From assembly GCA_038087875.1 (NCBI GenBank), contig CM075994.1, positions 6,636,001 to 6,700,000 on the forward strand: 64,000 nt of DNA. The letters run 5' to 3'. A program made the translations under genes and the position numbers. Source of the stretch: Malacoraja senta (Eukaryota). The notes under the pieces were generated by a model. The model worked only from the letters and a program-made list of their open reading frames with translations, had not been told where the DNA came from and searched no databases. Shown piece by piece: positions 16,311-58,286 of this stretch (position 1 is its first letter; every line of letters begins with the position of its first letter).

Positions 16311-16396
16311 TCAGCCTCTCCAATCTAAACTTGTAGCTGCATTTTCCATTTTAGGCAAAGATTATTGAACTGGCGTCTAAAACCATGAGAGGAATA

Positions 16397-17619
16397 GGAG
16401 GGTTGCACGGCAGTCGGGTCACGACCCATGACCCGTACTGTTGCCACGCTGCGCCAACTGGAGTACACGCGATGAACTGCAGGTAAGCACTGACCATTGT
16501 TTCCAGCGCAGTGGCCCGTTAAAACCCACCGAAATTGTCAATTTTTGCGCTGTAAATAATTATGGAAATCGGTATAAGCGTGAGAGACATTTATCCCTAC
16601 TTCAGAATTCCAAATGTGAGGAGAAATGACGGTTGATAGAAGCGAGAGCTGAAGGGACAACAACAGCCAGAGTGCTTGGCGAACATTGGCCGTTTGCTCA
16701 CTGCATTTCATCAACTAAGGCATTATTGTGTTTTTTCTTGATTACTTTGGCATCTAAAAAGTTTCAGAAGTGATAAATCTGGCCTTAAAATGTTAAAATC
16801 GCCCCTGGTTCTCAAGCGGTGTTTTGCATACAAAAAGAAAACTACCCTGAAGCAAAATTTATCATTAAAAAAAAAATCGCAAACATACGTGGGTTTTGAA
16901 TTACATTTTACTCAGATGCAAACAAGGAATGGCATAATTGTTAGCTGTTAATTGGACGTAATCAACGTCAGCAAATTGACAATATCCTATTGAAAGGGAG
17001 TGGGTGTTTAAGCTGTCAGGACATTTTTATTATTTGCCAAAATATACATCTCAATAGCATAATGAATAGAAACTTACTTTTCCACACACCACTCGTAAGT
17101 CTGGAGATTTTTTAAATGATAAATTTAGCTTCAGACGCGTTTTCCTGTGCATGTAAAAACCCACTTCAAAACCATGGCGATTTTTAATTTTACAGCCAGA
17201 TTTATCACTTCTGAGACTTTTTAGATACCAAAGGAATCAAGAAAAAACACAAATAATGCCTTACTGTTTATGAAATGCAGTGAGCAAAGCGATAATTCCC
17301 AATATTTTCAATCGCGATATCTGCATGGACAATGTTCGCCAAGCACTTTAGCTGTTGTTGTCCCTTCAGATCTCGCTTCTGTTTACCTTCATTTCGCTTC
17401 ACTTTTGGAATTCTGAAGTTGGGTACATGTCTCTCACGCTTACACCGACTTCACAATTTTTTACAGCGCAAAAATCACCATTTGGCGGGTTTTAACAGGT
17501 AGGAATGTACGCGTTTCTTGTATTAACAACATATACCGGAAGCTGCGATGTCCTCCAGATGGATTGAGCGGCTCCGTGCGTCAAGCCCTATGACCCGGTG
17601 ACCTTACGTGCAACCCCCC
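16397..17619 (+). mobile_element. Non-autonomous DNA transposon with short TIRs and about 300-bp subterminal inverted repeats
   Basis: TA|GGAGGGTTGCACG...CGTGCAACCCCCC|TA; 16515-16810 mirrors 17170-17495. Confidence 0.8.
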
Positions 17620-18151
17620 TATAGATAGGGTGAATACACAGAGTCGTCTACCCAGTGTAGGGGAATGGAGAACCGGAGGACATAGGTATTAAAGCTGAAA
17701 GTTGAATGATTTAATAGGAACCGGGAGGGGCAACGTTTCCCACAGAGGGTGTCAGGTACAAGATGAGCAGGGGAGGTAGCTGGGGCAGGTGCTATAACAT
17801 AGTTTAGAACCATTTGGACAGGTACATGGATCGGAACATTTAGAAGGATATAGGCCAAATATGGGCATATTGGGCTAGCTTAGATGGGACATCTTGGGCA
17901 GCACGGACAAGTTGGGCTGAAGGACACTATTTCCTTCTTGTATGACCCGTTAGTAATTGCAGCGAATTGTGGACGCAGCCCAGGCCGTCTCACAACCGAC
18001 CTCCCTTCCATTGATTCCAACCACACACCACGCTGCCTCGGCAAGACCAGCAACATAGTCAAGGAGGAGTTACTCCTGTCCACACCCTCTTCCCCTCTCT
18101 CCTATCAGGCAAAAGGTATAGAAGTGTGAAACGCACACCTCCAGATTCAGT

Positions 18152-18368
18152 GTTTAAGAAAGAACTGCAGATGCTGGAAAAATCGAAGGTAGACAAAAAT
18201 GCTGGAGAAACTCAGCGGGTGAGGCAGCATCTATGGAGCGAAGGAATACGCGACGTTTCGGTTCCAGACCCTTCTCAGACTGGTCTCGACCCGAAACGTC
18301 GCATATTCCTTCGCTCCATAGATGCTGCCTCACCCGCTGAGTTTCTCCAGCATTTTTGTCTACCTCCA
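18152..18368. repeat. Head-to-head inverted Penelope terminal-repeat pair
   Basis: GGTAGACAAAAATGCTGGAGAAACTCAGCGGGTGAGGCAGCATCTATGGAGCGAAGGAATA and its reverse complement at 18304-18364. Confidence 0.8.
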
Positions 18369-18688
18369 GATTCAGGAACAGTTTCTTCCCAGCTGTTATC
18401 AGGCAACTGGATCATCCTATCACAACCAGAGAGCAGTGCTGAACTACGATCTACCTCTTGATGTCCCTCGGTCTATCCTTGACCGGACTTTACCTTATCC
18501 TGTATCTATACACTATAAATGGATTGATTGTAATCATGTATTGTCTTTCTGCTGACTCGAGAGCACGCAACAACAAAAAACTTTTCACTGTAGCTCGGTA
18601 CACGTGACAATAAACTAAAGTGAAACTGAACTGAACTCTCTGATACTGTTCTTATGCACCAGCAATCAATAGGTTGGCAACTGAAATA

Positions 18689-18826
18689 TGAATGAATGAA
18701 TGAATGAATGAATGAATGAATGAATGAATGGATGAATGAATGAATGAATGAATGAATGAATGAATGAATGAATGAATGGATGAATGAATGAATGAATGGA
18801 TGAATGAAAGAATGAATGAATGAATG
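18689..18826. repeat. (GAAT)n microsatellite
   Basis: Direct reading. Confidence 0.97.
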
Positions 18827-18829
18827 ATG

Positions 18830-20200
18830 GCATTTAATAATGGCATGGTTACCAAGCTCTCCGATCTGGGTCTCTGCGCATCCCTCTGCAATTGGATCCT
18901 CGACTTCCTCATTCACAGACCACAACTGTCCGTATTGGTGGAAAAGTCTCGCCCTCAATATCAGCACGGGAGCACATCAAGGCTGCGTGCTCAGCCCCCT
19001 GCTGTACTCACTCTATATTCATGACTGCGTAGCCGGACTAGTGCGAACTCATCAGCAAGTTTGCCGACGACACCACTGTTGTGGGACTTATCAGAGTATA
19101 GAAGTGAGATGGACCGATTGACCAAATAACCATATAACCATATAACAATTACAGCACGGAAAACAGGCCATCTCGGCTCTTCTAGTCCGTGCCGAACACT
19201 TACTCTCACCTAGTCCCATCTACCTGCACTCAGACCATAACCCTCCATTCCTTCCCGTCCATATACCTATCCAATTATTTTTTAAATGATAAAACGAACC
19301 TGCCTTCACCACTTCCACTGGAAGCTCATTCCACACAGCTACCACCCACTGAGTAAAGAAGTTCCCCCTCATGTTGCCCCTAAACTTTTGTCCCTTAGTG
19401 CCAGCACAATAACCTGGCTCTCATCACCAGCAAAACAAGGAACTGATTGTGGACTTCGGAAGGGGTAGGATGGGGACACATGTTCCCGTTTATATCAACG
19501 GGTGGATGGTGGAAAGGGTCAAGAACTTCAAATTTCTGGGCATGCATATTTCCGAAGATCTCTCCTGGTCCCAGAACAATGATGCAATCATAAAGAAAGC
19601 ACATCAGTGCCTCTACTTCCTGAGAAGATTACGGCGAGTCGGTTTGTCAAGGAGGACTCTCTTCGAACTTCTACAGGTGCACAGTAGAGAGCATGCTGAC
19701 CCGTTGCATTGTGGCTTGGTTCGGCAACGAGCGCCAGGAGCGGAAAAGGAGCAAAAAGTTGTAAACACTGCCAGTCCATCATCATCCCTACCATCGAGGG
19801 GATCTATCGCAGGCGCTGCCTCAAAAAGGCTGCCAGCAACATCAAGGACCCACACCATCCTGGCCACAGACTCATCTCTCCGCTGCCATCAGTTAGAAGG
19901 TGCAGGAGCCTGAAATCTGCAACATCCAGGGTCAGGAACAGCTTCCCCACAGCCATCAGAATATTTAAACACAACTTCAAACAAACTATGAACTATAACA
20001 GCCTATTGCACTTTATCTGTGTATTTATGTGTGTATATATATATTCTATGGTATATGGTCACACTGATCTGATCTGATCTGTATTTATGCCTAAAAATAT
20101 TCTGTCATGCGCAGCACGCAAGAATTTCATTGTCCTATCTGGGACATATGACAATAAACTCTCTTGACTTGACTTGACTTGACTTGACTTGACTTGACTT
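18830..20200 (+). mobile_element. Rex1/Babar-like LINE 3' part, interrupted by a CR1 3' end (19126-19393, minus strand)
   Basis: GAHQGCVLSPLLYSLY.HDC, FADDTTVVG, VERVKNFKFLG, KAHQCLYFLRRLR; (CTTGA)n tail. Confidence 0.82.
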
Positions 20201-20960
20201 GAATGAATGAATAAGTTTATTGGCCAAGTATTCACATTCAAGGAATTTGCCTTGATGCTCCGCCCGCAGTGACAACATGCCATACAGTGACAGTTAGGAA
20301 TGATACATAAAACATTAAGTATTAATAATAAAACATTATTGATTAAACTTGTGCATTAAATAAAATACCAGGCTACAGATTTTTGGCTGTTGAGTAGAGC
20401 AACTACTCGTGGATAATAACTGTTTTTATGTCTGGCTATGGCAGCTTTGACAGTCCGGAGACGCCTTCCAGAGGGAAGTGATTCAAAGAGTTTGTGGCCA
20501 GTGTGAGAGGGGTCAGAGAAGATCTTACCCGCTCGCTTCCTGGCCCTTGCAGAGTAAGTTCGTCAATGGAGGGAAGGTTGCAGCCAATAACCTTCTCAGC
20601 TGATCGGACGATTTGCTGCAGCCTCCACGTATCGTGCTTGGTGGCTGAGCCAAACCAGACCATGATGGAGAAGGTGAGGACAGACTCTACGATGGCAGTA
20701 TAAAATTGGACCATCATTACCCGTGGTAGATTGTGCTTCCTCAGCTGCCGCAGGAAGTACATCCTCTTGTTGTGCCTTTTGACTGCGGAGCCGATGGTAG
20801 TCCCCCCACTTAAAGTTCCTTGGAGATGATGGTTCCCAGGAACTTAAAATACTCACAGATGTGAATGTGGTGTTGTTGATGGTGAGTGGAGTGGGAGGGG
20901 ATTCTCTCCGAAAGTCTACAAGCAATTCCACTGTCTTAAGAGCATTGAGTTCCAGGTTTT
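20200..20960 (-). mobile_element. Rex1/Babar-like LINE 3' fragment, second family
   Basis: NLELNALKTVEL.VDFR, MYFLRQLRKHNLP, VESVLTFSIMVWFG; (ATTC)n tail. Confidence 0.8.
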
Positions 20961-21299
20961 TGCGATATTGATCTCTCTTCGGGTTATAAGCCACTAAGAG
21001 TCTCAAGCCGTGTACTTTTTACAGCCGCCACAATCATCTTCATCTCAGCTAATCTTTTGCTACATGTATTGCAAGAGGGCAAGGTCAGCCAGGTCCGTAC
21101 CTTTGAATATTTGTTCTTCGTCCAATTCCAGTTAATAATCTGTAACCCCCCCCCCCTTCTCTCTCTCTATTCCCTCTGCCTCACCAGTTTGTGCAGCCCA
21201 TTGCTGCAACTATCCCACCCCATCCCTTTTCCCTTCAACAATTTGACCGTGGATTGAATGCGCCATGAATTAATTGGTGAAACTGTGCATGTGCGAGAG

Positions 21300-21632
21300 G
21301 CTTGGTTAGAGTGGACGTGGAGAGGATGTTTCCACTGATGGGAGAATCTAGGACTAGAGGTCATAGCCTCAGAATTAAACAACGATGAGGAGGAATTTCT
21401 TATTCAGACGGTGGTGAATCTGTGGAATTCTTTGCCACAGAAGGCTGTGGAGGCCGTCAATGGAATATTTTCTATGGCAGAGGGAAATAGATTCTTGATT
21501 AGTACAGGTGTCAGGGGTTATGGGGAGAAGGTAGGATAATTAGCTTAAGAGGGGAGATATACTGCAGATCAGCCAGGTATATCTGACTTGATGGGACGAA
21601 TGGCCTAATTCTGCTCCGATCACTTATGACCT
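21300..21632 (+). mobile_element. CR1 LINE 3' fragment
   Basis: GTGGACGTGGAGAGGATGTTTCCAC..GTGAATCTGTGGAATTCTTTGCCACAG..GGTTATGGGGAGAAGG. Confidence 0.75.
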
Positions 21633-22020
21633 TGTGGGAGGCCAAAGATGACGGTTTCTGCGGGGATTATAGGGCTGATAGAAACAATAGGCAGGCAGGG
21701 ACTAGACTGGGGTGGGACATAAAAGTAATTTTAAAACACACCAAAGAAACGCTGTCCCATTAGCGAGGCGAGCTGCAGATAGTTCTACTCGTGTGGTTTG
21801 GACCCTGGCTGCAGATGCTGTCGCATCCGAGCATCCACTGCAGATCCAGACCACACGTAGCGTGAACCAAAATACGCGTGAGTGATCAGATAAATAGGTG
21901 GGACTGGAACAAGTACATCGTATTTAACGGGAGCCGTCACTCCAGCACCTTGTGCCTATCTTTGGATTCAACCAGCATCTGCAGTTCTTAGCTTCACATC
22001 ACGCTGCGGCAGAACTTTAC

Positions 22021-22037
22021 CTTTTCACCCTATAATA
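22021..22037 (-). CDS. Candidate 17-nt micro-exon of TRIM gene B (YYRVK-R/S)
   Basis: Minus strand cttcattcttcag|TATTATAGGGTGAAAAG|gtaaag; phase 0-2 as expected after the coiled-coil exon; lies across the assembly gap. Confidence 0.35.
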
Positions 22038-22397
22038 CTGAAGAATGAAGCACGAGAGACGCTAACACGTCGCACGAGAAGACTTTGAATTGACAGTACA
22101 ACGCAGAGAATGGCTGTAATTAATTGATTTTACTGTATAAATCACAAATAAATTACACGCCAAAGCAGGGGATAGAAAATTAGTTATTAGTCTGAAGTTT
22201 ACATTCAGTTGAAGCGAACTTCTCATGTCAATAAAGGTTTGGGTCTGAAAACCATTGGTGTATTGTCAGTGAATGCAGTGAGTTGGTATTATAGCCTCCC
22301 TCCTCTCCTCCACAAACCCCTCCTCACTCCCCTCACCTCCTCCCTCTCCCCATCCTCCCCTCTTCTCCCCTCCCTTCTCCCACCAACCAACCACCTC

Positions 22398-22597
22398 NNN
22401 NNNNNNNNNNNNNNNNNNNNNNNNNNNNNNNNNNNNNNNNNNNNNNNNNNNNNNNNNNNNNNNNNNNNNNNNNNNNNNNNNNNNNNNNNNNNNNNNNNNN
22501 NNNNNNNNNNNNNNNNNNNNNNNNNNNNNNNNNNNNNNNNNNNNNNNNNNNNNNNNNNNNNNNNNNNNNNNNNNNNNNNNNNNNNNNNNNNNNNNNN
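22398..22597. other. Assembly gap (200 N, probably placeholder size)
   Basis: Run of exactly 200 N. Confidence 0.99.
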
Positions 22598-22820
22598 TAA
22601 CTGAACTGAACTGAACTTAACTTAACTTAACTAAACTAAAGATAGACACAAAAAGCTGGAGTAACTCAGCGGGTCAGACAGCATCTCTGGAGAAAACGAA
22701 TAGGTAACTTTTCCGTCGAGACCCTTAACTTCGCCTGGGTCATCGAACCTGCCGCTGAAAGCGCTGGTGAGGGCAGCAACTCTACCGCCGTGCCGCCGCC
22801 GTAAGTGGCTCTGGTCTCAC

Positions 22821-27150: not shown

Positions 27151-27260
27151 GAGCCTCTAGGATTCGGTATAAGGATCATTCGGATGGATAGGTGGGATTT
27201 GTAGTGGGACAGAGAGTGGGCTTTACTGTGGGACAGTTGTATGAGATGTTGGTCATCAGG

Positions 27261-27288
27261 CTGAAGAAGGGTTTCGGCCCGAAACGTT
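27261..27288 (+). ncRNA. Minimal hammerhead ribozyme-like core in a Penelope repeat
   Basis: CTGAAGA-AGGGTTTCGGCCC-GAAACGTT: CUGANGA and GAAA boxes around a stem II. Confidence 0.5.
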
Positions 27289-27356
27289 GCCTATTTCCTT
27301 CGCTCCATAGATGCTGCTGCACCCGCTGAGTTTCTCAGGTACTTTTGTCTACCTAC

Positions 27357-28307: not shown

Positions 28308-28392
28308 CTTGGGGGAACACACAGGGGTGGGTAAGTCACGGTACACTGTGGGGCGGGGGGGGCCCCAGAAACTAGGAACAAATTAGCGGGAG

Positions 28393-28772
28393 GGGCGGCA
28401 CGGTGGCGCAGCGGTAGAGTTGAGACAGGTACTGAAATAACATTTAGCGGTAGAGTTTAGCAGATACTGTAACAACAGCGGTAGAGTTGCTGCCTCACAG
28501 CGCCAGAGACCCGGGTTTGATTCTGACCATGGGTGCTGTCTGTACGGAGTTTGTACGCTCTCCCCGTGACCGCGTGGGTTTTCTCCGGGAGCTCCGGTTT
28601 CCTCCCACACTCCAAAGACATACAGGGTGGTTGGTTAATTGGCTTCTGTAAATTGCAAATTCTCCCTAGTGTGTAGGATAATGCTCGTGTACGGGGTGAT
28701 CACTGGTCGGCGAGGACTCGGTGGGCCAAAGAGCCACTTTCCGTGCTGTATCTCTGAAGTCTAAAGTCTAAC
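28393..28772 (+). mobile_element. Full-length tRNA-derived V-SINE/HE1-like SINE
   Basis: A box GGTGGCGCAGCGGTAG (AGCGGTAGAGTT locally triplicated), B box GGTTTGATTC, conserved core and tail. Confidence 0.85.
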
Positions 28773-28844
28773 TACCAACTGTGGCAGCTTGGTCCATATA
28801 CCTCCCACCGTTTGTGCAAAGAAAGAGGGCCCAGCTTGCCTAAA

Positions 28845-29345
28845 GAAACATAGAAAATAGGTGCAGGAGTAGGCCATTCGACCCTTCGAGCCAGCACCGC
28901 CATTCAATATGATCATGGCTGATCATCCACAATCAGTACCCCATGCTGACCAACATGCCCCATCTACTTAAATCCGCCCTGCCCATGTTTGGCCCATATC
29001 CCTCTAAATCTTCTCTGTCCATTTACCTGTTCAAATGTCTTTTAAATGTTGTTACAGTACCTTCCTCAACTACCTCCTCTGGTAGCTCATTCCATACACC
29101 CACCTCTCTCTGTGTGAAAAGGTTGCCCGTCAATTTCCTATTAAATCTTTCCCCGCTCACCCTAAACCTGATCTCTGGGTAAAGGTACATTCACCCTATC
29201 TATTCATCTCATGATCTTGTACACCTCTACAAGATCACCCATCATCCTCCTGCGTTCCGAGGAATAAAGTCCCAGCCTGCTCAACCTCCCCCTATAGCTC
29301 AGACCTTCTAGTCCTAGCAACATCCTCGTAAATCTTCTCTCTTCC
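28845..29345 (-). mobile_element. Two CR1 3' fragments
   Basis: CR1 UTR GGAGTAGGCCATTCG and reverse-strand WNELPEEVVE. Confidence 0.75.
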
Positions 29346-29745
29346 TACCTGAAACGTTCTTAGACTTTATAGAGATACAGCGTGGAACCAGGCCCTTCGG
29401 CCCACCGAGTCCATGCCGACCATCAATCAGCCCCTAGACCAACGCTTCTGTACAGCAGGGACAACTTTTTAAACAATTTCTCAAAGCCAATTAATCTACA
29501 AACCTGCGTAGGAATGAACTGCAGATGCTGGTATACATGCTGGTAATTCAGCGGGGTCAGGCAACATCTCTGGAGAATTGGAATTGGTGACGTTTCGGGT
29601 CGAGATCCAAACCTGCACGTGTTTGGAGTGTGGGAGGAAACCGGAGCTTGCGCTTTGAGGCAGCAACTCTACCGCTGCGCCACCACCGTGCCACCCAGGC
29701 AACACCCCAGATGAATCTCCCATGCACACTCTCCAGTACTTCTCA

Positions 29746-30053
29746 GTTTAGTTTAGTTTAGAGATACAGCCCAGAAACAGGCCCTTCGGCCCACCGAGTC
29801 CGCGCTGACTAGCGATCATTAACACTATCCTACACACACTAGGGGCAATTTACACATACACCAAGCCAATTAACCTACATACCTGTATGTCACACCAGCA
29901 TGGGAGGAAACTGAAGATCTCAGAGAAAACCCCACGTGGTCACGGGGAGAACGTGCAAACACTGCACAGACAGCACCCATAGTCTGGATCGACCCGGTTC
30001 ACCGGCGCTGCAAGCTATGTAATGCAGCAATTCTACCGCTGAACCACCATGCA
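29746..30053 (-). mobile_element. V-SINE/HE1-like SINE
   Basis: Reverse complement of the 28393 family, with (TTTAG)n tail. Confidence 0.8.
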
Positions 30054-30121
30054 GTCTATGAGCCGTGAGCTCTTGAGTTTAAGTTGGTCTGAACCGCACC
30101 AGTAACTGGGTTAAATTTAGT

Positions 30122-31595
30122 TTGTGTGGGAAAGAACTGCAGATGCTGGTTTAAACTGAAGATAGACACAAAAAGCTGGTGTAACTTAGCGGGACAGGCA
30201 GCATCTCTGGAGAGAAGAAATGGGTGACGTTTCGGGTCGAGGCCCTTCTTCAGACTGGTCAGGGATAAGGGAAACGAGAGATATAGGCGATGATGTAGAG
30301 AGATAAAGAGCAATGAATGAAAGATACGCAAAAGGTAACAATGGTAAAGGAAACAGGCCATTGTTAGCTGTTAGACAAAAATGCTGGAGAAACTCAGCGG
30401 GTGAGGCAGCATCTATGGAGCGAAAGAATAGGCGACGTTTCAGGTCGAGACCCTTCTTCAGACTGATGTGGAGGTGGGGGGCGGGAAGAAGAAAGGAAGT
30501 GGTGGAGACTGTAGGCTGTGGCAGAACTGGGAAGGGAAAGGGAAGGAGGGAGAAAGCAAGGACTACCTGAAATTGGAGGTCAATGTTCATACCGTTGGGG
30601 TGTAAACTACCCAAGCAAAATATGAGGTGCTGCTCCTCCAATTTGTGGTGGGACTCACTCTGGCCATGGAGGAGGCCCAGGACAGAAAGGTCGGATTCGG
30701 AATGGGAGGGGGAGTTGAAGTGCTGGGCCACCGGGAGATCTGGTTGGTTAGTATGAACCGAGCGGAGGTGTTGGGTGAAGCGATCGCCAAGCCTGTGCTT
30801 GGTCTCACCGATGTAGAGCAGCTGACACCTAGAGCAGCAGATACAATAGATGAGGTTGGAGGAGATGCAGGTGAACCTCTGCCTCACCTGGAAAGACTGC
30901 TTGGGTCAAGGAGGGGGAGGTAAAGCAACAAGTGTAGCATTTCCTGCGGTTGCAAGGGAAAGTACCAGGGGAGGGGGTGATTTGGGTGGGAAGGGACGAA
31001 TTGACCAGGGAGTTACGGAGGGAGCGGTCTCTGCGGCAAGCCGAAAGGGGAGGAGATGGGAAGATGTGACCAGTGGTGGGATCCCGTTGGAGGTGGCGAA
31101 AATGTCGGAGGATTATCTGTTGTATGTGACGACTGGTGGGGTGGAAGTGAGAGAGGAGACCCTGGTGAGAGCCTCATCTATAGTCGAAGAGGGGATTGGG
31201 AGTTGGGAGATAGAGTCCTTAATGCAGCGGAGCTGGTCCTTACCATCAACAACTTTTCCTTTAATTCCTCCCATTTCCTCCAAATCCAAGGCCTAGCTAT
31301 GGGCACGCGCATGCGCCCCAGCTATGCCTGCCTCTTTGTAGGGTATGTCGAACAATCCTGGTTCGAGGCTTATCGTGGCTCTATCCCCAAATTCTACCTC
31401 CACTGCATTGACGACTGCATTGGTGCTACCTCCTGCACCCATGTAGGACTCACTGACTTCATCCATTTCACCATTAACTTCCATCCGGCACTCAAATTCA
31501 CCTGGACCATTTCCGACATCTCCCTACCGTTTCTAGACCTCACTATCTCCATCGCAGGTAACAGACTACTGACCGACACCTCCTATCATCCCACT
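30122..31595 (-). mobile_element. Penelope-like (Neptune-type) retroelement: tandem terminal repeats, GIY-YIG endonuclease on -, inverted RT piece on + (about 31225-31595)
   Basis: FTCISSNLIYCICCSRC..LYIGET...HFNSPSH..EEQHLIF.LGSL.PNGMN; Cys-rich linker FPCNRRKCYTC; RT LTINNFSF..QIQGLAMGT..YACLF..IDD. Confidence 0.88.
30226..30461 (-). ncRNA. Tandem pair of minimal hammerhead ribozyme cores (30226-30253 and 30434-30461)
   Basis: CTGAAGA-AGGGCCTCGACCC-GAAACGTC and CTGAAGA-AGGGTCTCGACCT-GAAACGTC, 208 nt apart. Confidence 0.6.
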
Positions 31596-31701
31596 ATGAT
31601 TATCAGTGGGAGATACGGGAACCCTGTGTGAGTTTGAAAGGGCCCATATCCCCCCCTGCCCCAATGTTTCTAGCTTGCGACAGTGTCTATGCTTCAGTAC
31701 C

Positions 31702-32027
31702 AGCGGCACAGCGGATAGAGCCGCTGCCTCACAGCGCCAGAGCCCCGGGTTCGATCCTGACCTCGGGAGTTTTATGTCTGTGTGTGTGGAATTCGCACGT
31801 TCTCCCTGTGACGGCATGGGTTTCTTTCGGGTGCTCCAGTTTCCTCCCACATCCTGAAGAAAGATGTGTGTGGTTTGGGGTTTAATTGGCCCTCTGTAAA
31901 TTACCTCCTAGTGTGTGGGGAATGGATGAGAAAGTGGAATAACATAGAACTAGTGTGAACTGGTGATCGACATTGGACTCGGTGTGGGCCGAAGGGCCTG
32001 TTTCCATGCTGTATTTCTCCAACTAAA
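31702..32027 (+). mobile_element. V-SINE-like SINE
   Basis: GGTTCGATCC B box, conserved core, GGGCCGAAGGGCCTGTTTCC tail. Confidence 0.8.
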
Positions 32028-32103
32028 ACTTTTCCACTACTGATGAGACTCAATGGTCTGTAGTTCCCTGTTTCCATGCTGTATCTATGCACTAAACTAA
32101 ACA

Positions 32104-33060
32104 GCGGCACGGCTGCGCAGCGGTAGAGTTGCTGCCTCACAACGGCAGAGACCCGAGTTCAATCCTGACCACGGGTGCTGTCTGTACGGAGTTTGTACGT
32201 TCTCCCCGTGACCTGCATGGGTTTGCTCCGGGAGCTCCAGTTTCCTCCCACACTCCAAAGATGTACAGCTTGGCTAATTGGCTTGTTAACATTGTAAATT
32301 GTCCCCAGTGTGTGTAGGATAGTGTTAATGTGCGGGGATAGGAGCAGGGAGGTTCTACTGCAGTTGTACAGGGTCTTGGTGAGACCACACCTGGAGTATT
32401 GCGTACAGTTTTGGTCTCCAAATCTGAGGAAGGACATTATAGCCACAGAGGGAGTGCAGAGAAGGTTCACCAGACTGATTCCTGGGATGTCAGGACTTTC
32501 ATATGAAGAAAGACTGGATAGACTTGGCTTATACTCGCTAGAATTTAGAAGATTGAGAGGGGATCTTATAGAAACGTACAAAATTCTTATGGGGTTGGAC
32601 AGGCTAGATGCAGGAAGATTGTTCCCGATGTTGGGGAAGTCCAGGACAAGGGGTCACAGCTTAAGGATAAGGGGGAAATCCTTTAAGACCGAGATGAGGA
32701 AAAACTTTTTCACACAGAGAGTGGTGAATCTCTGGAACTGTCTGCCACAGAGGGTAGTTGAGTCCAGTTCATTGCCTATATTTAAAAGGGAGTTAGATGT
32801 GGCCCTTGTGGCTAAGGGGGTCAGGGGGTATGGAGAGAAGGCAGGTACGGGATACTGAGTTGGATGATCAGCCATGATCATATTGAATGGCGGTGCAGGC
32901 TCGAAGGGCCGAATGGCCTACTCCTGCACCTATTTTCTATGTATCTATGTATCTATGATTGCTGGTCGGCATGGACTATGTGGGCTGAAGGGCCTGTTTT
33001 CAAGCTGTATCTCTTATGTAAACTAAACTAAACTATACTATATTAAACTAAACTGAACCA
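32104..33060 (+). mobile_element. SINE split by a young CR1 3' fragment (32340-32957)
   Basis: SINE head and core run to 32340 and the SINE tail resumes at 32957; the insert encodes open SREVLLQLYRVLVRPHLEYCVQFWSP...GYGEKAGTGY. Confidence 0.88.
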
Positions 33061-35614
33061 AATAAAGATAAACACAAAGTGCTGAAATAACAGCCGGTCA
33101 AGTAGCATCTCTGGAGAAAAAGGTTGGGCGGCGTTTTGGGTTGGGACCCTTCTTCGGACTGAAATAGAGTCTTACAATTTTCAGTCTTCCTGACCCGCTG
33201 AGTTACTCCAGCACTTTGTGTCCTTGTTTGTTATAAACAATACGATACGGTGCGATACGATATGATAGAACTTTATTTGTCCCAGGAGGGAAACTGATCT
33301 GCCAACAGTCATAAAAACACAAGATACACGAAACACAAAATACGTGAAATATGAAATTAAAGTGACGAGTGGAAAGGCTTGGGAGATGTGCAAAGATTTG
33401 GGAGGGGGAGGGGCGGTGGGGACAGAAAAGAAGGATCTCCTGTGATGTTCTGTCCTGCATCTTGGTGGAACCAGTCTGTTGCTGAAGATGCTTCTCAGGT
33501 TGACCAGTGTGTAATGGAACGGGGTGCGCTAGATTAGATTGTCCAAGATCGACAGGATGGGTGTACAGTCCACAAACACATTCGCAGTTCTTTGTTTCTA
33601 AACTAAACCAGGGTACTGAGCTGGGGGAGCAAATTGCATTGGGATGTTCCAAATGAGTATAAAGAGATGCATATCTCTGTCCCCACAGTCCACAGTGCAG
33701 AGAGGAAGTGGTCGGTGTTAACATCTCTCTCGGTGGCGGTTTCCTCCAACGCTCCAAAGACCTATAGGTTTGTAGATTAATTGGCCCCTTGCAAATTGTC
33801 CCCAGTGTGTGTAAGATAGTGCTAGTGATGGGGTGATGGCTGCTCACCGCGGACTCCATGAGCTGAAGGGACTGTTACACGCTCTATCTCAAAGCTAAAT
33901 AAAACTAGCGGCTGAGAAAGTCTGAAGAGTTTTTTTGCACAGTTATTGTCTTGTATATATTTTTAGCCCGCACAAAGTTTATTTTGGGAAATTCGATTCT
34001 CTGAACAGGAACCCACCTGTCATTATGAAATAACAGTAGAACAGGGTATGAGAGTTCTAGTGCAGAGGTGGGGGGGATCTATCGCAAGGTAAGTAAGTAA
34101 GTAAGTAAGTAAGTTTATTGGCCAAGTATTCACATACAAGGAATTTGTCTTGGTGCTCCGCCCACAAGTAACAACATGACATACGGTGACAGTTACGAAT
34201 GACTCAGAAAACAATAAATATTAATAATAATAAAACATTCATGATAAAACACCATTGATCAAGCATGTGAACCAACAAAATACCAGATCAAAGGGAGGCT
34301 ACAGATTTTTGGCTGCTGAGTAGAGCAACTACTCGTGGATAAAAACTGTTTTTATGTCCGGCTGTGGCAGCTTTGACAATCGCCTTCCAGAGGGAAGTGA
34401 TTCAAAGGCTGGGGGGTCCAACATTGCTGCAGCTGCCTGCCTAGATCTACCTGATATCACGGTTACCGGGCACTTTAACTCCCCTTCCCATTCCCACACT
34501 GAAACTTACAGAATAATGAAAGGCATAGATAGAGTGGATGTGGAAAGGATGTTTCCAGTGGTGGGATAGTCTAGGACCAGAGGTGAGGAGGAACTTATTT
34601 AGTCAGAGAGTAGTTAATCAGTGGAACACATTGCCACAGAGGGTTGTAGAGGCCAAGAGAGTGGATATTTTTACGGCAGAGGTAGACAATTTCTTGATGA
34701 GTACGGGTGTCAAGGGTTATGGGGAAAGGCAGGAAAATGGGATTAGGAGATCAGCCATGATTGAATGGCGGAGTAGACTCGATGGGCCGAATGGCCTAAT
34801 TCTATCATTCCAATAACTTGTGAACTTGTGAACTTGTGACCAGTGTGTCACCAGAGAGGATGCTGCCTGTCCCACTGAGTTACTCCAGCATTTTGTGCCT
34901 ATCTCTGCTTCAGCAGACATGCAGCACATCAACCGTGCAGCGGCAGTGGATCTGCACCCGAGTCCTGTTTCCAGAAATAGGGAACTTTGAGTAAGTGAAC
35001 TGCCACATTATTCTGGCCATCTACAGTTCAACAACACAATTCACTGCTCAAGAATACAGCTGTAAAAGATCTTAACGTCAGCAACAGTGTGTGTTAGTTA
35101 ATGTGTTGAGAACAAAACTAGAGCATACAGCAGTATAGCACAGTATAGTGCTGCCTGCATGGGTTTCCTCCAGAATCGGTTTCCTCCCATTCCTCCAAAG
35201 ACGTACAGGTTTGTAGGTTCATTGGCTTGGTAGAAATGTAAAAATTGTCCCTAGCGTGTGCAGGATCGTGTTAGTGCGTGGGGATCGCTGGTCGGCGCGG
35301 ACTCGGTGGGCCACAGGGCCTGTTTCCTCGCTGTATCTCTAAACTAAATAAACTAAACTCAGCGGGTCCGGCTGCATCTCTGGAGAACACGGACAGGTGA
35401 CGTTTCGGGGCGGGACTCTTCTTCAGACTGGTCAGGGGGAGCAGCAGTGAGAGAGGGTCACAGAGCTCCAGTGGGAGAGGGCAGGAGAACTTCTTCAAAC
35501 TTGGCATACCCTGAGGAGATTTTGCGTTGGAGCAGTGAAAATGGAGACCCAAGGAAGTGCAGATGTTGATTTACCAAAAAAAAGAAAAAAAAGCGCTGGA
35601 GTAACTCAGCGGGT

Positions 35615-38200
35615 CATAGAAACAGAGAAACATAGAAAATGGATGCAGGAGCAGGCCATTTGGCCCTTCGAACCAGCACCGCCATTCAATATGATCATGG
35701 CTGATCATCCAAAATCAGTACTCCGTTCCAGCTTTTTCCCCAAAATCCTTTGATTCCCTAAGAGCTAAATCTAACTCTCTTCAAAACATCCAGTGAATTG
35801 GCCTCCACTGCCTTCTGTGGCCGAGAATTCCACAGATTCACAACTCACTGTGTGAAAAGGTTTTTCCTCATCTCAGTCTTAAATGGCCTATCCCTTATTC
35901 TTAAACTGTGCTCCCTGGTTCTGGACTCCCCCAACACCGGGAACATATTTCCTGCATCTACCCTATCCAAACCTCTAAGAATTTTATATTGTTCCATAAG
36001 ATACCCTCTCATCCTTCTAAATTCCAGCGAATACAAGCCCAGTCGACCCATTCTTTCATTATATGTCAGCCCCGCCACCCCGGGAATTAACGTTGTGAAC
36101 CTACACTGCACTCTCTCAATAGCAATAATGTCTTTACTCAAATTAGGAGACCAAAATTGCACACAATACTCCAGGTGTGGTCTCACCTGGGCCCTGTACA
36201 ACTGCAATAGGACCTCCTTGCTCCTAAACTCAAATCCTCTTGCAATGAAGGCCAAACATGCCATTAGCTTTCTTTACTGCCTGCTGTACTTGCATGCTTA
36301 CTGATGTACAAGCACACCCAGGTCTTGTTGCATTTCCCCTTCTCCTAATTTGACACCATTCAGATAATAATCTGCTTTCCTGTTCTTGCCACCAAAGTGG
36401 ATAACTTCACACTTATCCACATTATACTGCATCAGCCATGCTTCTGCCCACTCACCCAGCCTATCCAAGTCACACTGCAGTCTCAGAGAATCCCCCTCGA
36501 AGCTCACACTGCCACCCAGCTTTGTGTCATCCGCAAATTTAGAGATGTTACATTTAATTCCCTCGTCTAAATCGTTAATATATATTGTAAACATCTGGAG
36601 TCCCAGCACCGAACCTTGCGGCACCCCACTAGTCAATGCCTGCCATTCTGAAAAGGACCCATTAATTCCTACTCTCTGCTTCCTGTCTGCCAACCAGTTC
36701 TCTATCCATGTCAATACCCTACCCCCGATACCAGGTGTTCTAATTTTGCACACTAATCTCTTGTGTGGGACCTTGTCAAAGGCTTTTTGAAAGTACAGAT
36801 ACACCACATCCATTGGCTCTCCCTTATCCATTCTACTTGTTACATCCTCAAAAAATTCCCAAAGATTATTCACGCATGATTTCCCCTTCATAAATCCATG
36901 CTGACTTTGACCGATCCCATCACGGCTTTCCAAATGCGCTGCTATAAAACCTTTAATAATTGACTCCAGCATCTTCCCCACTACTGATTTAAGGCAAACT
37001 GGTCTGTAATTCCCTGTTATCTCTCTCTCTCCTTTCTTAAAAAGTGGAGTTACATTGGCTACCCTCCAGTCCACAGGAACTGATCCAAAGTCGAGAGAAT
37101 TTTGGAAAATGATCACCGATGCATCCACGATTTCTCGGGCCACCTCCTTGAGTAATCTGGATGCAGACCATCAGACCCTGGGGATTTATCTGCTTTCAAG
37201 TCCCAACAGTTTAGCTAACACCATTTTCTGACTAATGTGGATTCCCTTCAGTTCTTCCCTGCCACTAGATCCTCGGTCCCCTAGTATTTCTGGGAGATTG
37301 TTTGTGTCTTCCTTAGTGAAGACAGAACCAAAGTACTCGTTTAACTGTTCTGCCATTTCCTTGTTTCCCATTATAAATTCACCTGTCTCTGACTGTAAGG
37401 ACCTACATTCATCTTCACCAATATAATCTTTTCCTTTTAACATACCTAAAGTTACTTTTACAGTCAGTTTTTATATTCCATGCAAGATTTCTCACATGCT
37501 TTTTTCCCCCCTCTTATTTAACACACTTGTCCTCCTCTGTTGAGTTCTAAATTTCTCGCAGTCCTCTGGTTTGCCGCTTCTTCTGGCCAATTTATATGCC
37601 TCTTCCTTGGATTTAACACTATCCTTGACTTCCCTCGTCAACCACGGTTGAGCCGCCTTCCCAGTTTTATTTTTTTTGCCAGACAGGGATGAAACATTTC
37701 TGGAGTTCATCCATGCGGCCTTTAAATCTTTACCATTGCCTGTCCACTGTCAACCCTTTAAGTATAATTTGCCAGTCTATCCTAGCCAATTCCTGTCTCA
37801 TACCTTCAAAGTCTCCTTTATTCAAGTTCAGGGTCCCAGTCTCTGAATTAACCGTGTCACTCTCCATCCTAATGCAGAATTCCACCATATTATGGTCACT
37901 TGCAGAACATATTATGTTCACTTGCACAAGATCGCTAACTAATCCTTCCTCATTACACAATAGCCACTCTAGGATGGCCTGCCCTCTAGTCAGTTCCTCT
38001 ACACATTGGTTTAAAAACCCATCCGTATACATTCCAGGAAATCCTCCTCCTCAGCACTGTTACCAATTTGGTTGGCCCAATCTATATGTAGATTAAAGTC
38101 ACCCATGATAACCGCTGTACCTTTGCTACACGCATCCCTAATTTCCTGCTTGATGCTATCCCCAACCTCCCTACTGCTGTTTGGTGGTCTGTGTACAACA
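35615..38200 (-). mobile_element. 5'-truncated CR1 LINE (endonuclease C-half, RT, 3' UTR) with frameshifts
   Basis: MGDFNLHIDW, SDHNMVEF, GNYRPV, AFDKVPH, GVPQGSVLG, FADD, LEYCVQFWSP; (CATAGAAA)n tail. Confidence 0.93.
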
Positions 38201-38235
38201 TACCTGTTTGGTGGTCTGATCGAAAAACAATGACG

Positions 38236-38640
38236 TAAAATGCTGGAGTAACTCAGCGGGTCAGGCAGCATCTCTGGAGAATATGGATTGGGCGGCGTTT
38301 CGAGTCGGGACCCTCCTCCAGTCTGAAAAAGAGTCTCGACCCGAGAGATATACAGTAGATGACGATGTAGAGAGATAAAGAACAAAGAATGAAAGGTATG
38401 CAAAAAAGTAATGATGATAAAGGAAACAGGCCATTGTCCGCTGTTTGCTGGGTGAAAACGAGAAGGTGGTGTGAATTGGGTGGGGGAGGGATAGAGAGAG
38501 AGGGAATACCGGGGCTGCCTGAAGTTATAGAAATTAATATTAATACCACTGGGGTGTAAGCTGTCGAAGCGAAATATGAGATGCTGTTCCTCCAATTTAC
38601 ATTTAGACTCACACTGACAATGGAGGAGACATAGGACAGA
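38236..38640 (-). mobile_element. Penelope 3' fragment (GIY-YIG C-terminus plus terminal repeat)
   Basis: EEQHLIFRFDSLHPSGINI; repeat homologous to 30170-30370. Confidence 0.75.
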
Positions 38641-39199
38641 AGTGTGACAAGTGGAAAGGACAGGGGAAGTGCAAGGATTGGGTGGGGGGGGGGGGAGAGG
38701 AGAGTCAGTCTCAGTCTACACCATGACAGAAAGGGGAGGAGTTGTACAGTTTGATAGCGACAGGGAGGAAGCATCTCCTGTGGTGTTCTGTGCTGCATCT
38801 TGGTGGAACCAGTCTGTTGCTGAAGGTGCTCCTCAGGTTGACGAGTGTGTCATGGAGGGGGTGAGCTGTATTGTCCAGGATGCTCCGCAGTTTGAGGAGC
38901 ATCCTCCCCTCCAAGACCACCTCTTGGATCCACTACCTGCAACCTCTGGCAACCACCTTCAACTAGCATCGCAACCGGCTTCTACTAAAAAATTACCGAT
39001 TTTTAAAACGGCAACCTATTTTTAGTCGCGGCCGTTTTTGAATTTTTTGAAATAATCGCCGGAACATAGAAGAAGCGGAAACCACTTTCGACCATTAGGG
39101 AGACTGACAAAAACCTCCGGGAACCGCACGGAAACCTTGGGTGGGGCGCAAGGTCTCCAGAGGTTTCCGTTCAGGTTTCCTAAGTGGGACAGGGGCATT

Positions 39200-39410
39200 A
39201 GAATCTAGGAATCTAGGGCTCTTGGACTCTGGGAATCTAGGACTATAGGAATCTAGGAATCTAGGACTCTGGGACTGGTACTCTAGGAATCTATAACTCT
39301 AGGATTAAGACTCTAGGATACTAGGACTCTAGGACTAGGACTCCGGGACTAGGAATCTCAGAATCTAGCACTCTGGGACTTTAGGAATCTAGGAATTAAG
39401 ACTCTAGGAC
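39200..39410. repeat. 8-bp tandem repeat CT(A/G)GGA(C/A)T next to a Harbinger-MITE end
   Basis: Direct reading; GTGGGACAGGGGC TIR at 39184-39197. Confidence 0.85.
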
Positions 39411-40259
39411 ATAACAAAATAAACCGATACCACTGCAAATCGAAACAGGAGTACGCCACTCGCCCCCTCGAACCAATCCCGCCATTGATCGTGACTGATC
39501 TGCCCCAGGCCTCATCTCATCTTCGGTGCCATTTCCCCAAACTCTCAGTTCCCTCATCTTTCAAATATAGATCTACTTCCTGTAAAATGCACACATGGAG
39601 CTGACTGCCACAAGCCGCCATGCCATAAAATTACAATGGTTCACTGTCCTCTGTAAGTCATTCCTTTGTTTAGTTTACTTTAGTTTACTTTAACTTACCT
39701 TAGCTTAACTTAGTTTAGCTTATCTGAGAGTGGTTTAACTTAGTTTAGCTTAGTTTAGTTTAGTTTGGTTTAGTTTAGTTCACTTTATATATATCTCTTG
39801 TTTCCCTTTCCCCTGACTCTAGTCTGGAAAAGGGTCTTGACCCGAAACGTCACCCATTCCTTCCTCAAGAGATGCTGCCTGTCCCGCTGAGTTACTCCAG
39901 CATTTTGTGTCTATATTAATTCCGTTCAGTTCATTTCAGTTTAGTTTATTGTCACCTCACGTGTACCGAGTTACAGTGTAAAGCTCTTTTGTTGCGTGCT
40001 AACCAGTCAGCGGAAAGACTATACTATAAGATCCCCTCTCATCCTTCTAAATTCCAGTGAATACAAGCCCAGTCATTCCATTCTTTCATTATATGACAGT
40101 CCCGCCATCCCGGGAATTAACCTCGTGAACCTACGCTGCACTTCCTCAATAGCAAGAATGTTCTAAATCCTTCTTGGGACTGCTTCCCACACCTCTCTAT
40201 CCTTTCTTAAACAAGGAGACCAGACCTGTACAGACTACCCCAGAAGTGGCCACACCTAC

Positions 40260-41054
40260 CCCTCTACATCGGGGACCTGGGATGGAGGGTACTGCACCGT
40301 GGAGTCCCGTGCAACCTGTTTATCTCCCGGTCCACAGACTCGACAGCCGCCTGCCAGTTTTGCGGGCTAGAACAGTCTGTGTTCCAAGATCTACACAAAA
40401 TGCTGGAGTGACTCAGCGGGACAGGCAGCATCACTGGAGAGAAGGAATGGGTGACGTTTCAGACTCATGTTTAAAGAAGGGTCTCGACCTGAAAGGTCGC
40501 CCATTTCTTCTCTCCAGAGATGCTGCCTGATTTAAACCAGCATCTTCTGTTCCTTTCTACAGAGTCTGTGTTCCACGTGTATATGGAGTGTGTGAGGTTG
40601 CAGCCCCTGTTCCAATATCTAAAGGGGCTGCTCCTTGCCCTCTGGCTGCACTTCACACCCACCATCCTCATCGTTGGACACCCTGTGCGTAGGGGAGAGG
40701 GTAGAGGGCTGAAGATGTCCTGGTTGCGTTGCTCCTGGGCCTGGCCAAGCTGGCCATCCGCCAGGCGGAAGAGGACTCAACACGAGTCGACTGCCTACCC
40801 CTTTTCCGGGGTTATGTCCGTGCCCGGGTAGCACTAGAGAGGGACTACGCGCTGTCCACGGGCACCCTGGGAGATTACTGGGACCGCTGGGCACCGCGGG
40901 GGGTGGAATGCATCCTTAATAAGGATGGGGAAATAGTAATTTAAAGGAAATTTGTTTTATACTTGTATCATGGTGGTGGGTTTTGTTTTGAATAATTCAG
41001 TATTGTACATATTATAGTAAATATTTGAATAAATCATTTTTGATTAACAAAAAA
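40260..41054 (+). mobile_element. Tx1/L1-like LINE 3' end (zf-RVT) with an internal Penelope palindrome (40393-40562)
   Basis: PLYIGDLGWRVLH, ESVFHVYMECVRLQPLFQYLKG, LLLGLAKLAI; AATAAA and A-rich tail. Confidence 0.8.
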
Positions 41055-41991
41055 GGAGTGGCCTCACCAACACCCTGCACAGCCCTCACAGGTCACGGGG
41101 AGAAGGTACAAACACCGTACAGACAGCACCCGGGGTCAGGATCGAACCCCGGTCTCTGTCGCTGTAAGGCAGCAACTCTACCACTGCGCCCATAGTTGAA
41201 GTTAGAGTGTAGTGTTCAAGAGCCTGATGGTTGTCGGGAAGAAGCTAATCTTGAACCTGGTGGTCACAGTTCTCATGTTCCTGTACCTTATTGCCGATGA
41301 TCTTATAGAGGTGTACAAAATCATGAGAGGAATAGATCGGGTAGATACACAGAGTCTATTGCCCAGAGTAAGGGAATCGAGGACCGGAGGACATAGGTTC
41401 AAGGTGAAGGGGAAAAGATTTAATAGGAATCTGAGGGGTGACTTTTTCACACAAAGGGTAGTGGGTGTATGGAACAAGCTGACAGAGGAGGTAGTTGAGG
41501 CTGTGAGTTAAGAAGGTAGAGGAGCTTGAAATCTGGAACATCCAGGTTCAGGAACAGGCTCTTCCCCACAACCATTCGGCTATTAAACATGACATCAAAC
41601 AAGCTCTGAACAATAACAGTCCATTATTACTATTGCACTTTATCTGTTTATTTATTGTGTATATATTTGGTCTATGGTCAAGAGACACACTGAACTTTTA
41701 TCTCCTGTTCTGTATTATGTTTAAATATTCTGTTGTGCTGCAATAAGCAAGAATTTCATTGTCCTATCTGGGACACATGACAATAAAACTCTCTTGAATC
41801 TTGACTTGACTCTTGACTATCCCATCGTTTAAGAAACAACTAGACAGGGACATAGATAGGACAGGCTTGGAGGGATATGGACCAAGCGCAGGCAAGTAGG
41901 TCTAGTGTAGCTGGACATGTTGGCTGGTGTGGGCAAGTTGGGCCGGTGGGCCTGTTTCCAGACTGTATCACTCTTTGACTCCATTAATCTA

Positions 41992-42127
<136 letters not shown>

Positions 42128-42217
42128 CACCTGAGGTGAGGACCAAACCCAGGTTCGCAGCGACTACCAGTGCCGTCCAAGTTACGAGATTTGAGGGGGG
42201 TAGGGGGTGGTTCGTAC

Positions 42218-56396: not shown

Positions 56397-57370
56397 TCAG
56401 ATATGTAAAGTTTTTTTTACACAGAAGGTGATGGGTGCCTGGAACACATTGCTGGTGGTGGAGGCAGATACGATAGTGGTGTTTAAGAAGCTTTTAGATA
56501 GGCACATGGATATGCATGGAATGGAGCGATATGGACCACGTGCAGGCAGAGGGGATTAATTTAACTTGGTTTCCTGTTCAGCAAGGACACTTGATTGTAA
56601 TCAAGTCTAGTCTTCCCACTGACCGGTTAGCACAAAACAAAAAAAACCTCGGTACATGTGACAATAAACTAAACTAAACTAAAACACAGTGGGATTTTGG
56701 GGTTGTTCCTGTACTGTACTGTTCTATGTAGGAAGGAACTGCAGATTCTGCTTATACTGAAGATAGACACAAAATAATGGAGTAACTCAGCGGGACAGGC
56801 AGCATCTCTGGAGAGAAGGAATGGGTGACGTTTCGAGTCGAGACCCTTCTTCAGATTAAAAGTCACAGGAAAGGGAAACGGAAGTGTCAAGAGTCAAGAA
56901 TGTTTTATTGTCATATGTCCCGGATGGGACAATGAAATTCTTACTTGCTGCAGCACAACAGAATATGTGAATATGTAAACATGGTATATAACGGGGGAAG
57001 AGAAAAAAAAAGAAAAAGTTCAATAAATAACAAATATAACGCAATAATAATATAGTCTTTTGCAGTTCAGAGCTCAGAGCTTATTTGTTGTTGTGTTTAA
57101 TAGCATAATGGCTGTAGGAAAGAAGCTGTTCCTGAACCTGGACGTTACAGTTTTCAGGCTCCTGTACCTTCTTCCTGATGGCAATGGTGAAATGAGTGTG
57201 TGTGGCCAAGATGGTGTGGGTCCTTGATGATTTTGGCTGCCTTTTTGAGGCTGCCTTTTTGTGTCATTTTACATGGTGTCACAGTGGTAGACTCGCGTCT
57301 CCTGTTTATCGTTTTTTCTTTTTATTCTTTGCTTTCTCCCAGTTGTTCACGTCTCCCCCCCGTTTTCATT

Positions 57371-58285: not shown

Positions 58286-58286
58286 G

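What the first reader, a model, noticed from the sequence alone, without database searches (positions are those of the whole stretch)
30226..30461. Dispersed and tandem minimal hammerhead ribozyme cores in Penelope repeats (possible retrozyme-like circular RNA unit)
Seen: intact CUGANGA-stem II-GAAACGU(C/U) cores at 27261(+), 30226(-), 30434(-), 35399(-) and 56827(-), plus mutated copies near 14350, 14935, 33130 and 39823. Established: Penelope-like elements carry minimal type I hammerheads with a palindromic helix III that cleave as dimers. Inference: the tandem pair 208 nt apart is sense to the gene B intron 1 pre-mRNA, so it could cleave the host transcript or release an approximately 208-nt monomer that circularises. 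Helix I is only 2-3 bp, so activity is uncertain.
Basis: partly seen in the sequence, partly recalled or inferred. Interest (0 to 1): 0.7.

Follow-up and report, generated by a model that had tools for sequence, protein, structure and literature searches.

The report
Decayed Penelope hammerhead pair in intron
Two tiny hammerhead RNA motifs of an already published kind sit 208 bases apart in an intron of a skate-like fish gene because the ends of two different subfamilies of a broken Penelope jumping gene are joined there; both are damaged and predicted not to cut, so this is likely an ordinary fossil rather than a circular-RNA unit.

Summary
The five hammerhead cores are real, at the stated cut-site coordinates, and match the published minimal hammerheads of Penelope-like elements. 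The pair (C17 at 30434 and 30226, minus strand) ends a decayed, 5'-inverted Neptune-type element (RT piece, CX4CX2C linker, GIY-YIG) in intron 1 of a TRIM gene, in sense orientation. It is not a repeated unit: only 95 of 208 nt are shared (84%). The upstream copy is a subfamily-A end lacking its ~38-nt tail, joined at 30371/30370 to the 3' UTR and tailed end of subfamily B. In related animals' runs, family reads leave the locus at this junction. Each copy has a helix II defect that the family majority lacks (G10.1-U11.1 in A, C-A mismatch in B), helix I is 2 bp, and the dimer fold is predicted 23-28 kcal/mol above the minimum-energy fold. Core bases decay as fast as neighbours (11/110 vs 47/410, p=0.74). 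The would-be circle is poorly self-paired (z=-0.6), unlike retrozyme circRNAs. Best reading: a Penelope partial-tandem insertion made from two templates, now likely inert. No RNA of this locus was tested. New member of a known kind; low interest.

The parts
31230..31600 (+). Inverted 5' piece of the Penelope-like element: RT core fragment (YIDD motif decayed), opposite in orientation to the rest
   Evidence: Open frame on +; aligns to residues 201-299 of RT+GIY-YIG protein P0010, E=1e-16
30832..31229 (-). Sense body: RT-EN linker with CX4CX2C zinc-finger-like motif (Neptune type); stops, frameshifts and a missing stretch
   Evidence: P0010 residues 394-464, E=2e-10
30561..30902 (-). GIY-YIG endonuclease remnant with two cysteines between the GIY-like and YIG motifs
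   Evidence: Pfam PF01541 E=1.6e-4, 22.4 bits against cut-off 22.6; best relatives Leucoraja erinacea 78% and Hypanus sabinus 65%
30432..30463 (-). Minimal hammerhead A (C3 30461, C17 30434): helix I U-G/G-C, helix II with G10.1-U11.1, palindrome ACGU
   Evidence: about 75% of family reads carry C11.1
30371..30433 (-). Subfamily-A sequence after the cut site, ending without the ~38-nt tail
   Evidence: 97% identical to copies 18251 and 18301; tail scoring; loose ends at 30372 are the A tail
30258..30370 (-). Spacer: 3' UTR piece of subfamily B, 5'-truncated at the junction
   Evidence: 81% match to 38443-38342, where it follows an EN remnant with no hammerhead A in between
30224..30255 (-). 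Minimal hammerhead B (C3 30253, C17 30226): helix I U-A/G-C, helix II 3 bp with C-A mismatch, palindrome ACGU
   Evidence: about 91% of family reads carry U10.4
30123..30225 (-). Subfamily-B sequence after the cut site, with the tail; 3' end of the whole insertion near 30123
   Evidence: loose ends with diverse flanks at 30123
28308..42217 (-). Intron 1 of gene B (TRIM): exon 1 42616-42218 RING and weak B-box, exon 2 28307-28212, exon 3 23054-22821 coiled coil
   Evidence: GT-AG ends, exons of 399, 96 and 234 nt in frame; expression not tested
27259..27290 (+). Dispersed core, A-like subfamily, GUU triplet, 1.1:2.1 pair broken; antisense in intron 2 of gene B
35397..35428 (-). Dispersed core, helix II broken at two pairs; sense in intron 1
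56825..56856 (-). Dispersed core, subfamily B, tailed, helix I reduced to 1 bp
38237..38680 (-). Second element with EN remnant, same spacer and a single broken hammerhead: shows the normal subfamily-B layout

Best explanation
The pair is the 3' end of a decayed Neptune-type Penelope-like insertion in which a tail-less subfamily-A end is joined to a short, tailed subfamily-B end, likely made in one insertion event by the reverse transcriptase copying two RNA templates in turn, and both hammerheads are predicted not to cut. Shown: element anatomy, the two subfamilies, the junction at 30371/30370, the missing tail on A, the helix II defects. Inferred: cDNA synthesis began at the tailed end of a B RNA, stopped after about 250 nt, went on with an A RNA from its inner (tail-less) start site for about 860 nt, and ended with an inverted RT piece; the 208-nt spacing is just where the first copy was truncated. 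In the active parent element the motif likely acted weakly, as a dimer or with help from the element's protein. Here the intron is likely spliced out with the motifs folded in a non-catalytic hairpin.
For: Anatomy matches the published PLE insertion unit: partial tandem, adjacent inverted 5'-truncated copy, 30-40-bp tail at one end only (PMC8557442 passages; PMC3846280 passages); in an anole PLE the tail lies between two RT start sites (PMC11167929). Window 3' ends are bimodal, 7 of 20 tailed. A and B share 95 nt at 84% while A is 97% identical to 18251/18301. The spacer follows EN without core A at 38.3-38.4 kb. No B remnant lies upstream of the element and no target duplication was found. 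In RNA run X22 depth is about 180 reads in the spacer bin 30340-30364 against about 5970 in 30390-30414, and 1742 reads leave at 30372 into the A tail; of reads covering 30371, 64 of 70 carry the B-family letter, as do 93-96% of contig depth in three DNA runs. Family majority has C11.1 (2635 of 3523 reads) and U10.4 (4205 of 4613), so both defects are departures from the family. Dimer fold is 22.6-27.6 kcal/mol above the MFE in three contexts, helix II probability 0.03 or less; core purines pair downstream with P 0.96-0.99. Core mismatches 11/110 against 47/410 downstream, p=0.74; 17/154 against 78/574 with all 14 copies, p=0.50. Published min-HHRs cut weakly even as dimers (PMC4209133), and 8 of 9 Xenopus dimer elements did not cut (bioRxiv 10.64898/2026.07.22.740005).
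Against: The order of events is not shown; a nested insertion with loss of B's upstream part gives the same sequence. 5 of the 24 contig pieces listed straddle a similar junction in two other organisms (24-41 letters a side, none with 31 on both sides, depth 22-85), so such joins recur. All 11 core bases are intact in both copies and both keep GUC. Folding models ignore tertiary contacts and proteins; the anole PLE hammerhead cut only when protein was added, and a single G10.1-C11.1 pair can suffice for helix II in designed ribozymes (PMC544870 passages), which bears on B. The conservation test has 10-14 copies and the comparison region was the search query. No run holds half the words of the locus, so family reads come from related organisms and the locus's own RNA was not seen.
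Confidence: 0.62

Rival explanations
1. Two separate events: a subfamily-A copy landed at or inside an older subfamily-B copy, B's upstream part being absent or deleted. The functional verdict is the same (inert fossil).
Against: No B-type sequence upstream of 31600 and no target duplication; A would have to land exactly at B's truncated edge or delete its upstream part; tail on the downstream copy only fits the partial-tandem pattern.
Confidence: 0.25
2. The pair cuts weakly or only with help from Penelope protein or host chaperones, nicking intron 1 of the TRIM pre-mRNA now and then, without a stable circle.
For: Both cores and both ACGU palindromes are intact and 208 nt apart in cis; protein-assisted cleavage is shown for an anole PLE hammerhead; 8 of 12 copies in intron 1 are sense, so there is no sign of purging.
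Against: Cross helix I pairs are 2 bp with an A-U or G-U pair, weaker than every 2-bp case in the published list, which are G-C/G-C; G10.1-U11.1 in A; 23-28 kcal/mol penalty; no place where many molecules start or end in family RNA reads (poly(A) library, 6% of the run, another organism, so weak).
Confidence: 0.08
3. One reading: a retrozyme-like unit whose two hammerheads release a 208-nt monomer that circularises.
For: Size is within the 170-400 nt range of animal retrozymes, GC 46%; animal retrozymes are proposed to arise from PLE pLTRs and were found in one cartilaginous fish.
Against: Not a repeated unit; junction rare among family reads; circle folds at -26.4 kcal/mol, 41% paired, z=-0.61 against 200 shuffles, whereas retrozyme circRNAs are described as highly self-paired and the tested ones carry canonical-type hammerheads; double cleavage needs both damaged cores.
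Confidence: 0.04

Closest known systems
[quoted passage not shown]
   Same: CUGANGA plus one unpaired base, G10.1-C11.1 in the family majority, GAAA, palindromic 15.2-16.2, NUH, U-rich flank, position just after the GIY-YIG ORF, very high copy number, mostly single truncated copies, close pairs on opposite strands.
   Different: Helix I is 2 bp with an A-U or G-U pair (most listed motifs 3-6 bp; the 2-bp ones are G-C/G-C); helix II 4 bp; no cartilaginous fish among the 56 listed motifs.
Neptune-clade EN+ Penelope-like elements and their partial-tandem insertion unit (PMC8557442, PMC3846280, PMC11167929)
   Same: RT then C-terminal GIY-YIG with cysteines between GIY and YIG, CX4CX2C linker, 5' truncation, inverted 5' piece, tail on one copy only.
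   Different: The two tandem parts come from different subfamilies and the short copy is downstream; the element is dead (stops, frameshifts, deletion). Clade placed by motif, no tree.
Non-LTR retrozymes of animals (PMC7229834; bioRxiv 10.64898/2026.07.22.740005)
   Same: Two type I hammerheads about 200 nt apart on one strand, PLE origin, GC under 50%.
   Different: No repeated monomer, no array, attached to coding remnants, damaged minimal rather than canonical ribozymes, weakly paired circle, no RNA evidence.

Membership tests
min-HHR of metazoan PLEs | Core CUGANGA ... GAAA ... UH in type I order | tested here: met
min-HHR of metazoan PLEs | Unpaired base between A9 and 10.1; palindromic 15.2-16.2 with no helix III | tested here: met
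   A after A9; ACGU in both copies
min-HHR of metazoan PLEs | G10.1-C11.1 pair and a helix II | tested here: met
   Met by the family majority and by B at 10.1; copy A itself has G-U
min-HHR of metazoan PLEs | Helix I closing the motif | tested here: inconclusive
   2 bp only; the sole variation is U-A versus U-G at 2.1:1.1, one-sided
min-HHR of metazoan PLEs | Location in a PLE terminal repeat after the RT-EN ORF | tested here: met
min-HHR of metazoan PLEs | Self-cleavage as a dimer | not testable with these tools
   Only folding predictions, which disfavour it
Neptune-clade PLE | RT followed by C-terminal GIY-YIG with cysteines between GIY and YIG | tested here: met
   GIY-YIG score 22.4 is just under the Pfam cut-off 22.6
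Neptune-clade PLE | Extra CX2-5CxxC motif in the RT-EN linker (shared with Nematis) | tested here: met
   CX4CX2C at about 30930-30960 minus; motif definition
Neptune-clade PLE | RT phylogeny inside Neptune | not tested
   No named reference set at hand; Neptune versus Nematis rests on motif and recalled host range
Non-LTR retrozyme | Tandem repeat of a monomer with a hammerhead in each unit | tested here: not met
   95 of 208 nt shared; no TRF array
Non-LTR retrozyme | Unit amplified in the genome | tested here: inconclusive
   Own genome not held; in related organisms the junction is a small share of family depth and no listed piece fully bridges it
Non-LTR retrozyme | Highly self-paired circular monomer | tested here: not met
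   z=-0.61, 41% paired
Non-LTR retrozyme | Abundant circular and linear monomer RNA in tissue | not testable with these tools
   No RNA run of the locus; solitary copies mimic a back-joint because A and B are homologous

The most novel reading that the evidence does not exclude
The skate-like Neptune hammerhead is a protein-switched ribozyme: both subfamilies keep a pyrimidine tract right after the cut site that is predicted to lock the core and helix II 5' strand in an off hairpin (P above 0.8 in 5 of 9 copies), and the element's RT-EN would open it. Then very many sense intronic copies, and hetero-dimers such as this A/B pair, could cut host pre-mRNAs or shed short RNAs whenever Penelope protein is made, and the junction here would be a direct record of RT jumping between subfamily RNAs at the tail-less start site.
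Probability: 0.08. Interest if true: 0.6.

Novelty: new member of a known kind. Interest (0 to 1): 0.13.

Why it matters
As it stands, little: minimal hammerheads at Penelope ends are published, abundant and mostly inert, and this pair is an accident of insertion. It is of some use as a worked example that two hammerheads about 200 nt apart need not be a retrozyme, and as a natural two-template junction bearing on the unsolved PLE insertion mechanism. If the motif proved to be switched on by Penelope protein, it would tie transposon activity to cleavage of host introns in cartilaginous fish and speak to the open question of what PLE hammerheads do.

Tried and rejected
Rfam scan at E up to 5: no hammerhead family among 8 matches, expected for a motif without helix III. 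Own genome: none held, so no genome-wide counts. Pattern scans of viral contigs and metagenome contigs: 0 matches each. Sequencing runs: 22 listed, no RNA holder listed, none with half the words; no evidence either way on expression. Read starts or ends at the cut sites: none in X22, weak test. Back-joint for a circle: not among the 15 joints shown of 1649; not decisive, since solitary copies mimic it. First conservation count came from an alignment that opened almost no gaps and overstated mismatches; redone with pairwise alignments, same conclusion; 10 of the 24 hits were left out because they lack the core region in the same orientation or are weak, one inverted partner (15579) was added by hand, and a second count left out 4 more. 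One search printed H17 positions 12 nt off; the fold constraints used the right offset. Target-site duplication search: best 7-mer, not at the ends. Search for a PRY/SPRY exon of gene B in the window: none. Literature: no paper holding Penelope, Neptune, shark and hammerhead ribozyme together (0 papers); one for Penelope, skate, cartilaginous fish, transposable, seen as a listing only. Earlier findings near this place or by sequence: none.

Full report
Observation. All are members of one dense repeat: 24 hits with the post-cut part as query, about 3 of them weak. Rfam finds no hammerhead. The motif fits the published consensus for minimal hammerheads of Penelope-like elements: core, one extra base after A9, helix II, GAAA, palindromic ACGU, NUH (PMC4209133, main text parts 1-2 of 4 and supplement parts 1-2 of 3).

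Host context. The endonuclease remnant's closest named relatives are from Leucoraja erinacea (78%) and Hypanus sabinus (65%), so the host is skate-like. Gene B is a minus-strand TRIM: exon 1 42616-42218 (RING, weak B-box), exon 2 28307-28212, exon 3 23054-22821 (coiled coil), all in frame with GT-AG ends. The pair is sense in intron 1 (13.9 kb). Of 12 family copies in that intron 8 are sense and 4 antisense. Expression of gene B was not tested.

The element. On the minus strand: an inverted RT piece (31230-31600, read on plus), then in sense the linker with CX4CX2C, a GIY-YIG domain, a pyrimidine-rich UTR, hammerhead A, 113 nt of spacer, hammerhead B and a tail ending near 30123. The RT and linker pieces align in order to one RT plus GIY-YIG protein that was found with the endonuclease piece. 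Stops, frameshifts and a missing stretch show it is dead. The linker motif points to Neptune (or Nematis) by the definition in PMC8557442 (12 of 20 passages); no tree was built.

The pair is a chimera, not a repeat. A and B share 95 nt at 84%; TRF calls nothing there. A's post-cut part is 97% identical to copies 18251 and 18301, B's is 88-94% identical to 15536, 56826, 39852, 40452 and 22705. A stops where the family's optional tail of about 38 nt begins; 7 of 20 window copies have the tail and 13 do not. The spacer recurs at 38443-38342 straight after an endonuclease remnant, with no hammerhead A, so it is subfamily B's own 3' UTR. Public runs of related organisms agree (none holds half the words of the locus). 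At 85% likeness the hammerhead parts are far deeper than the spacer: in RNA run X22 about 5970 reads in bin 30390-30414 against about 180 in 30340-30364; 1742 reads leave at 30372 into the A tail; 95% of laid reads run on into unlike sequence. Of X22 reads covering 30371, 64 of 70 show the B-family letter, as do 93-96% of contig depth in three DNA runs. Against a strict one-off: 5 of 24 listed contig pieces straddle a similar junction in two organisms, at depth 22-85, none with 31 letters on both sides. Such joins seem to recur at low frequency, as partial tandems would.

How it arose. Published PLE insertions are partial tandems with an adjacent inverted truncated copy and a 30-40-bp tail at one end, and in an anole PLE the tail lies between two RT start sites (PMC11167929, parts 1-2 of 4). 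The simplest reading, which is inference, is one event with two templates: a tailed B end copied for about 250 nt, then an A RNA from its tail-less start for about 860 nt, then an inversion. No B remnant lies upstream and no target duplication was found. A nested insertion with loss of B's upstream part cannot be excluded.

Can it cut? Helix I is 2 bp in cis and across the dimer (U-A or U-G, plus G-C). In the published list of 56 motifs most have 3-6 bp and the 2-bp cases are G-C/G-C. A has G10.1-U11.1 and B a C-A mismatch at 10.4:11.4; the family majority has C11.1 (2635 of 3523 reads) and U10.4 (4205 of 4613), so these are likely decay. Forcing the dimer costs 22.6-27.6 kcal/mol in three sequence contexts, and helix II has probability 0.03 or less; the core purines instead pair with the tract just after the cut site (P 0.96-0.99). 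Core bases are no better kept than neighbours: 11/110 against 47/410, p=0.74, in 10 copies; 17/154 against 78/574, p=0.50, in 14. That shows no selection after insertion but says nothing against function in the parent element. Published min-HHRs show no monomer activity and low dimer activity; 1 of 9 Xenopus dimers cut (bioRxiv 10.64898/2026.07.22.740005, parts 1-3 of 5); the anole motif cut only with protein and was not needed for insertion in vitro. In favour of residual activity: all 11 core bases and GUC are intact in both copies, and a single G10.1-C11.1 pair supports designed ribozymes with long arms (PMC544870 passages). Family RNA reads show about equal strands over the hammerhead part and no pile-up of ends, a weak test in a poly(A) library of another organism.

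Retrozyme test. Animal retrozymes are tandem monomers of about 170-400 nt giving abundant, highly self-paired circRNAs (PMC7229834, parts 2-3 of 6). The 208-nt piece fits in size and GC (46%) but folds as a circle at -26.4 kcal/mol, 41% paired, z=-0.61, and is not repeated. It fails two defining features; two others are untested or inconclusive.

Novelty. The class is published. No cartilaginous fish is in the 2014 list, one is covered in the 2026 preprint whose supplements I could not read, and a search for Penelope, Neptune, shark and hammerhead ribozyme together gave 0 papers. Eight unreviewed notes of this scan report the same kind of motif in shark-like genomes; they are leads, not support. 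Verdict: new member of a known kind, likely inert, interest 0.13. The boldest reading left open is a protein-switched ribozyme with a built-in off hairpin (5 of 9 copies), probability about 0.08.

Noticed in passing
window 15536/15579, 18251/18301, 33129/33162, 38292-38344, 40452/40499: Five head-to-head inverted pairs of the hammerhead end; in four the switch point lies in or just beside the core and helix II, which fits the palindromic inverted junctions described for Penelope.
   Followed up: partly
window 30214-30253 and 30422-30461 (minus), also 14346, 27289, 56826: The pyrimidine tract just after the cut site is predicted to pair with the core purines and helix II 5' strand in both subfamilies (5 of 9 copies P above 0.8): a possible off conformer.
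   Followed up: partly
window 8324-8822 (+): The PRY-SPRY exon of TRIM gene A lies in three frames (two frameshifts): pseudogene or assembly indels.
   Followed up: no
window 12500-22800 (-): No PRY/SPRY exon for gene B was found downstream of exon 3; its B-box is weak (E=0.017). A 200-N gap lies at 22398-22597.
   Followed up: partly
window 27261-27290 (+) and reads at 30426-30428: A third abundant variant with UUCG loop, U-G at 10.4:11.4 and GUU triplet (1350 loose-end reads in X22); all changes keep pairing but are one-sided.
   Followed up: partly
window 45260-46270 and 48220-49320: Two near-identical Tc1-like transposase remnants in opposite orientation, between two copies of another repeat; family name recalled from the translated motifs.
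   Followed up: no
window 57968-59771 (+) and 61552-63998 (-): Long ORFs that look like Gypsy-type (500 aa) and BEL/Pao-type (405 and 263 aa) LTR retrotransposon remnants; labels recalled, not tested.
   Followed up: no
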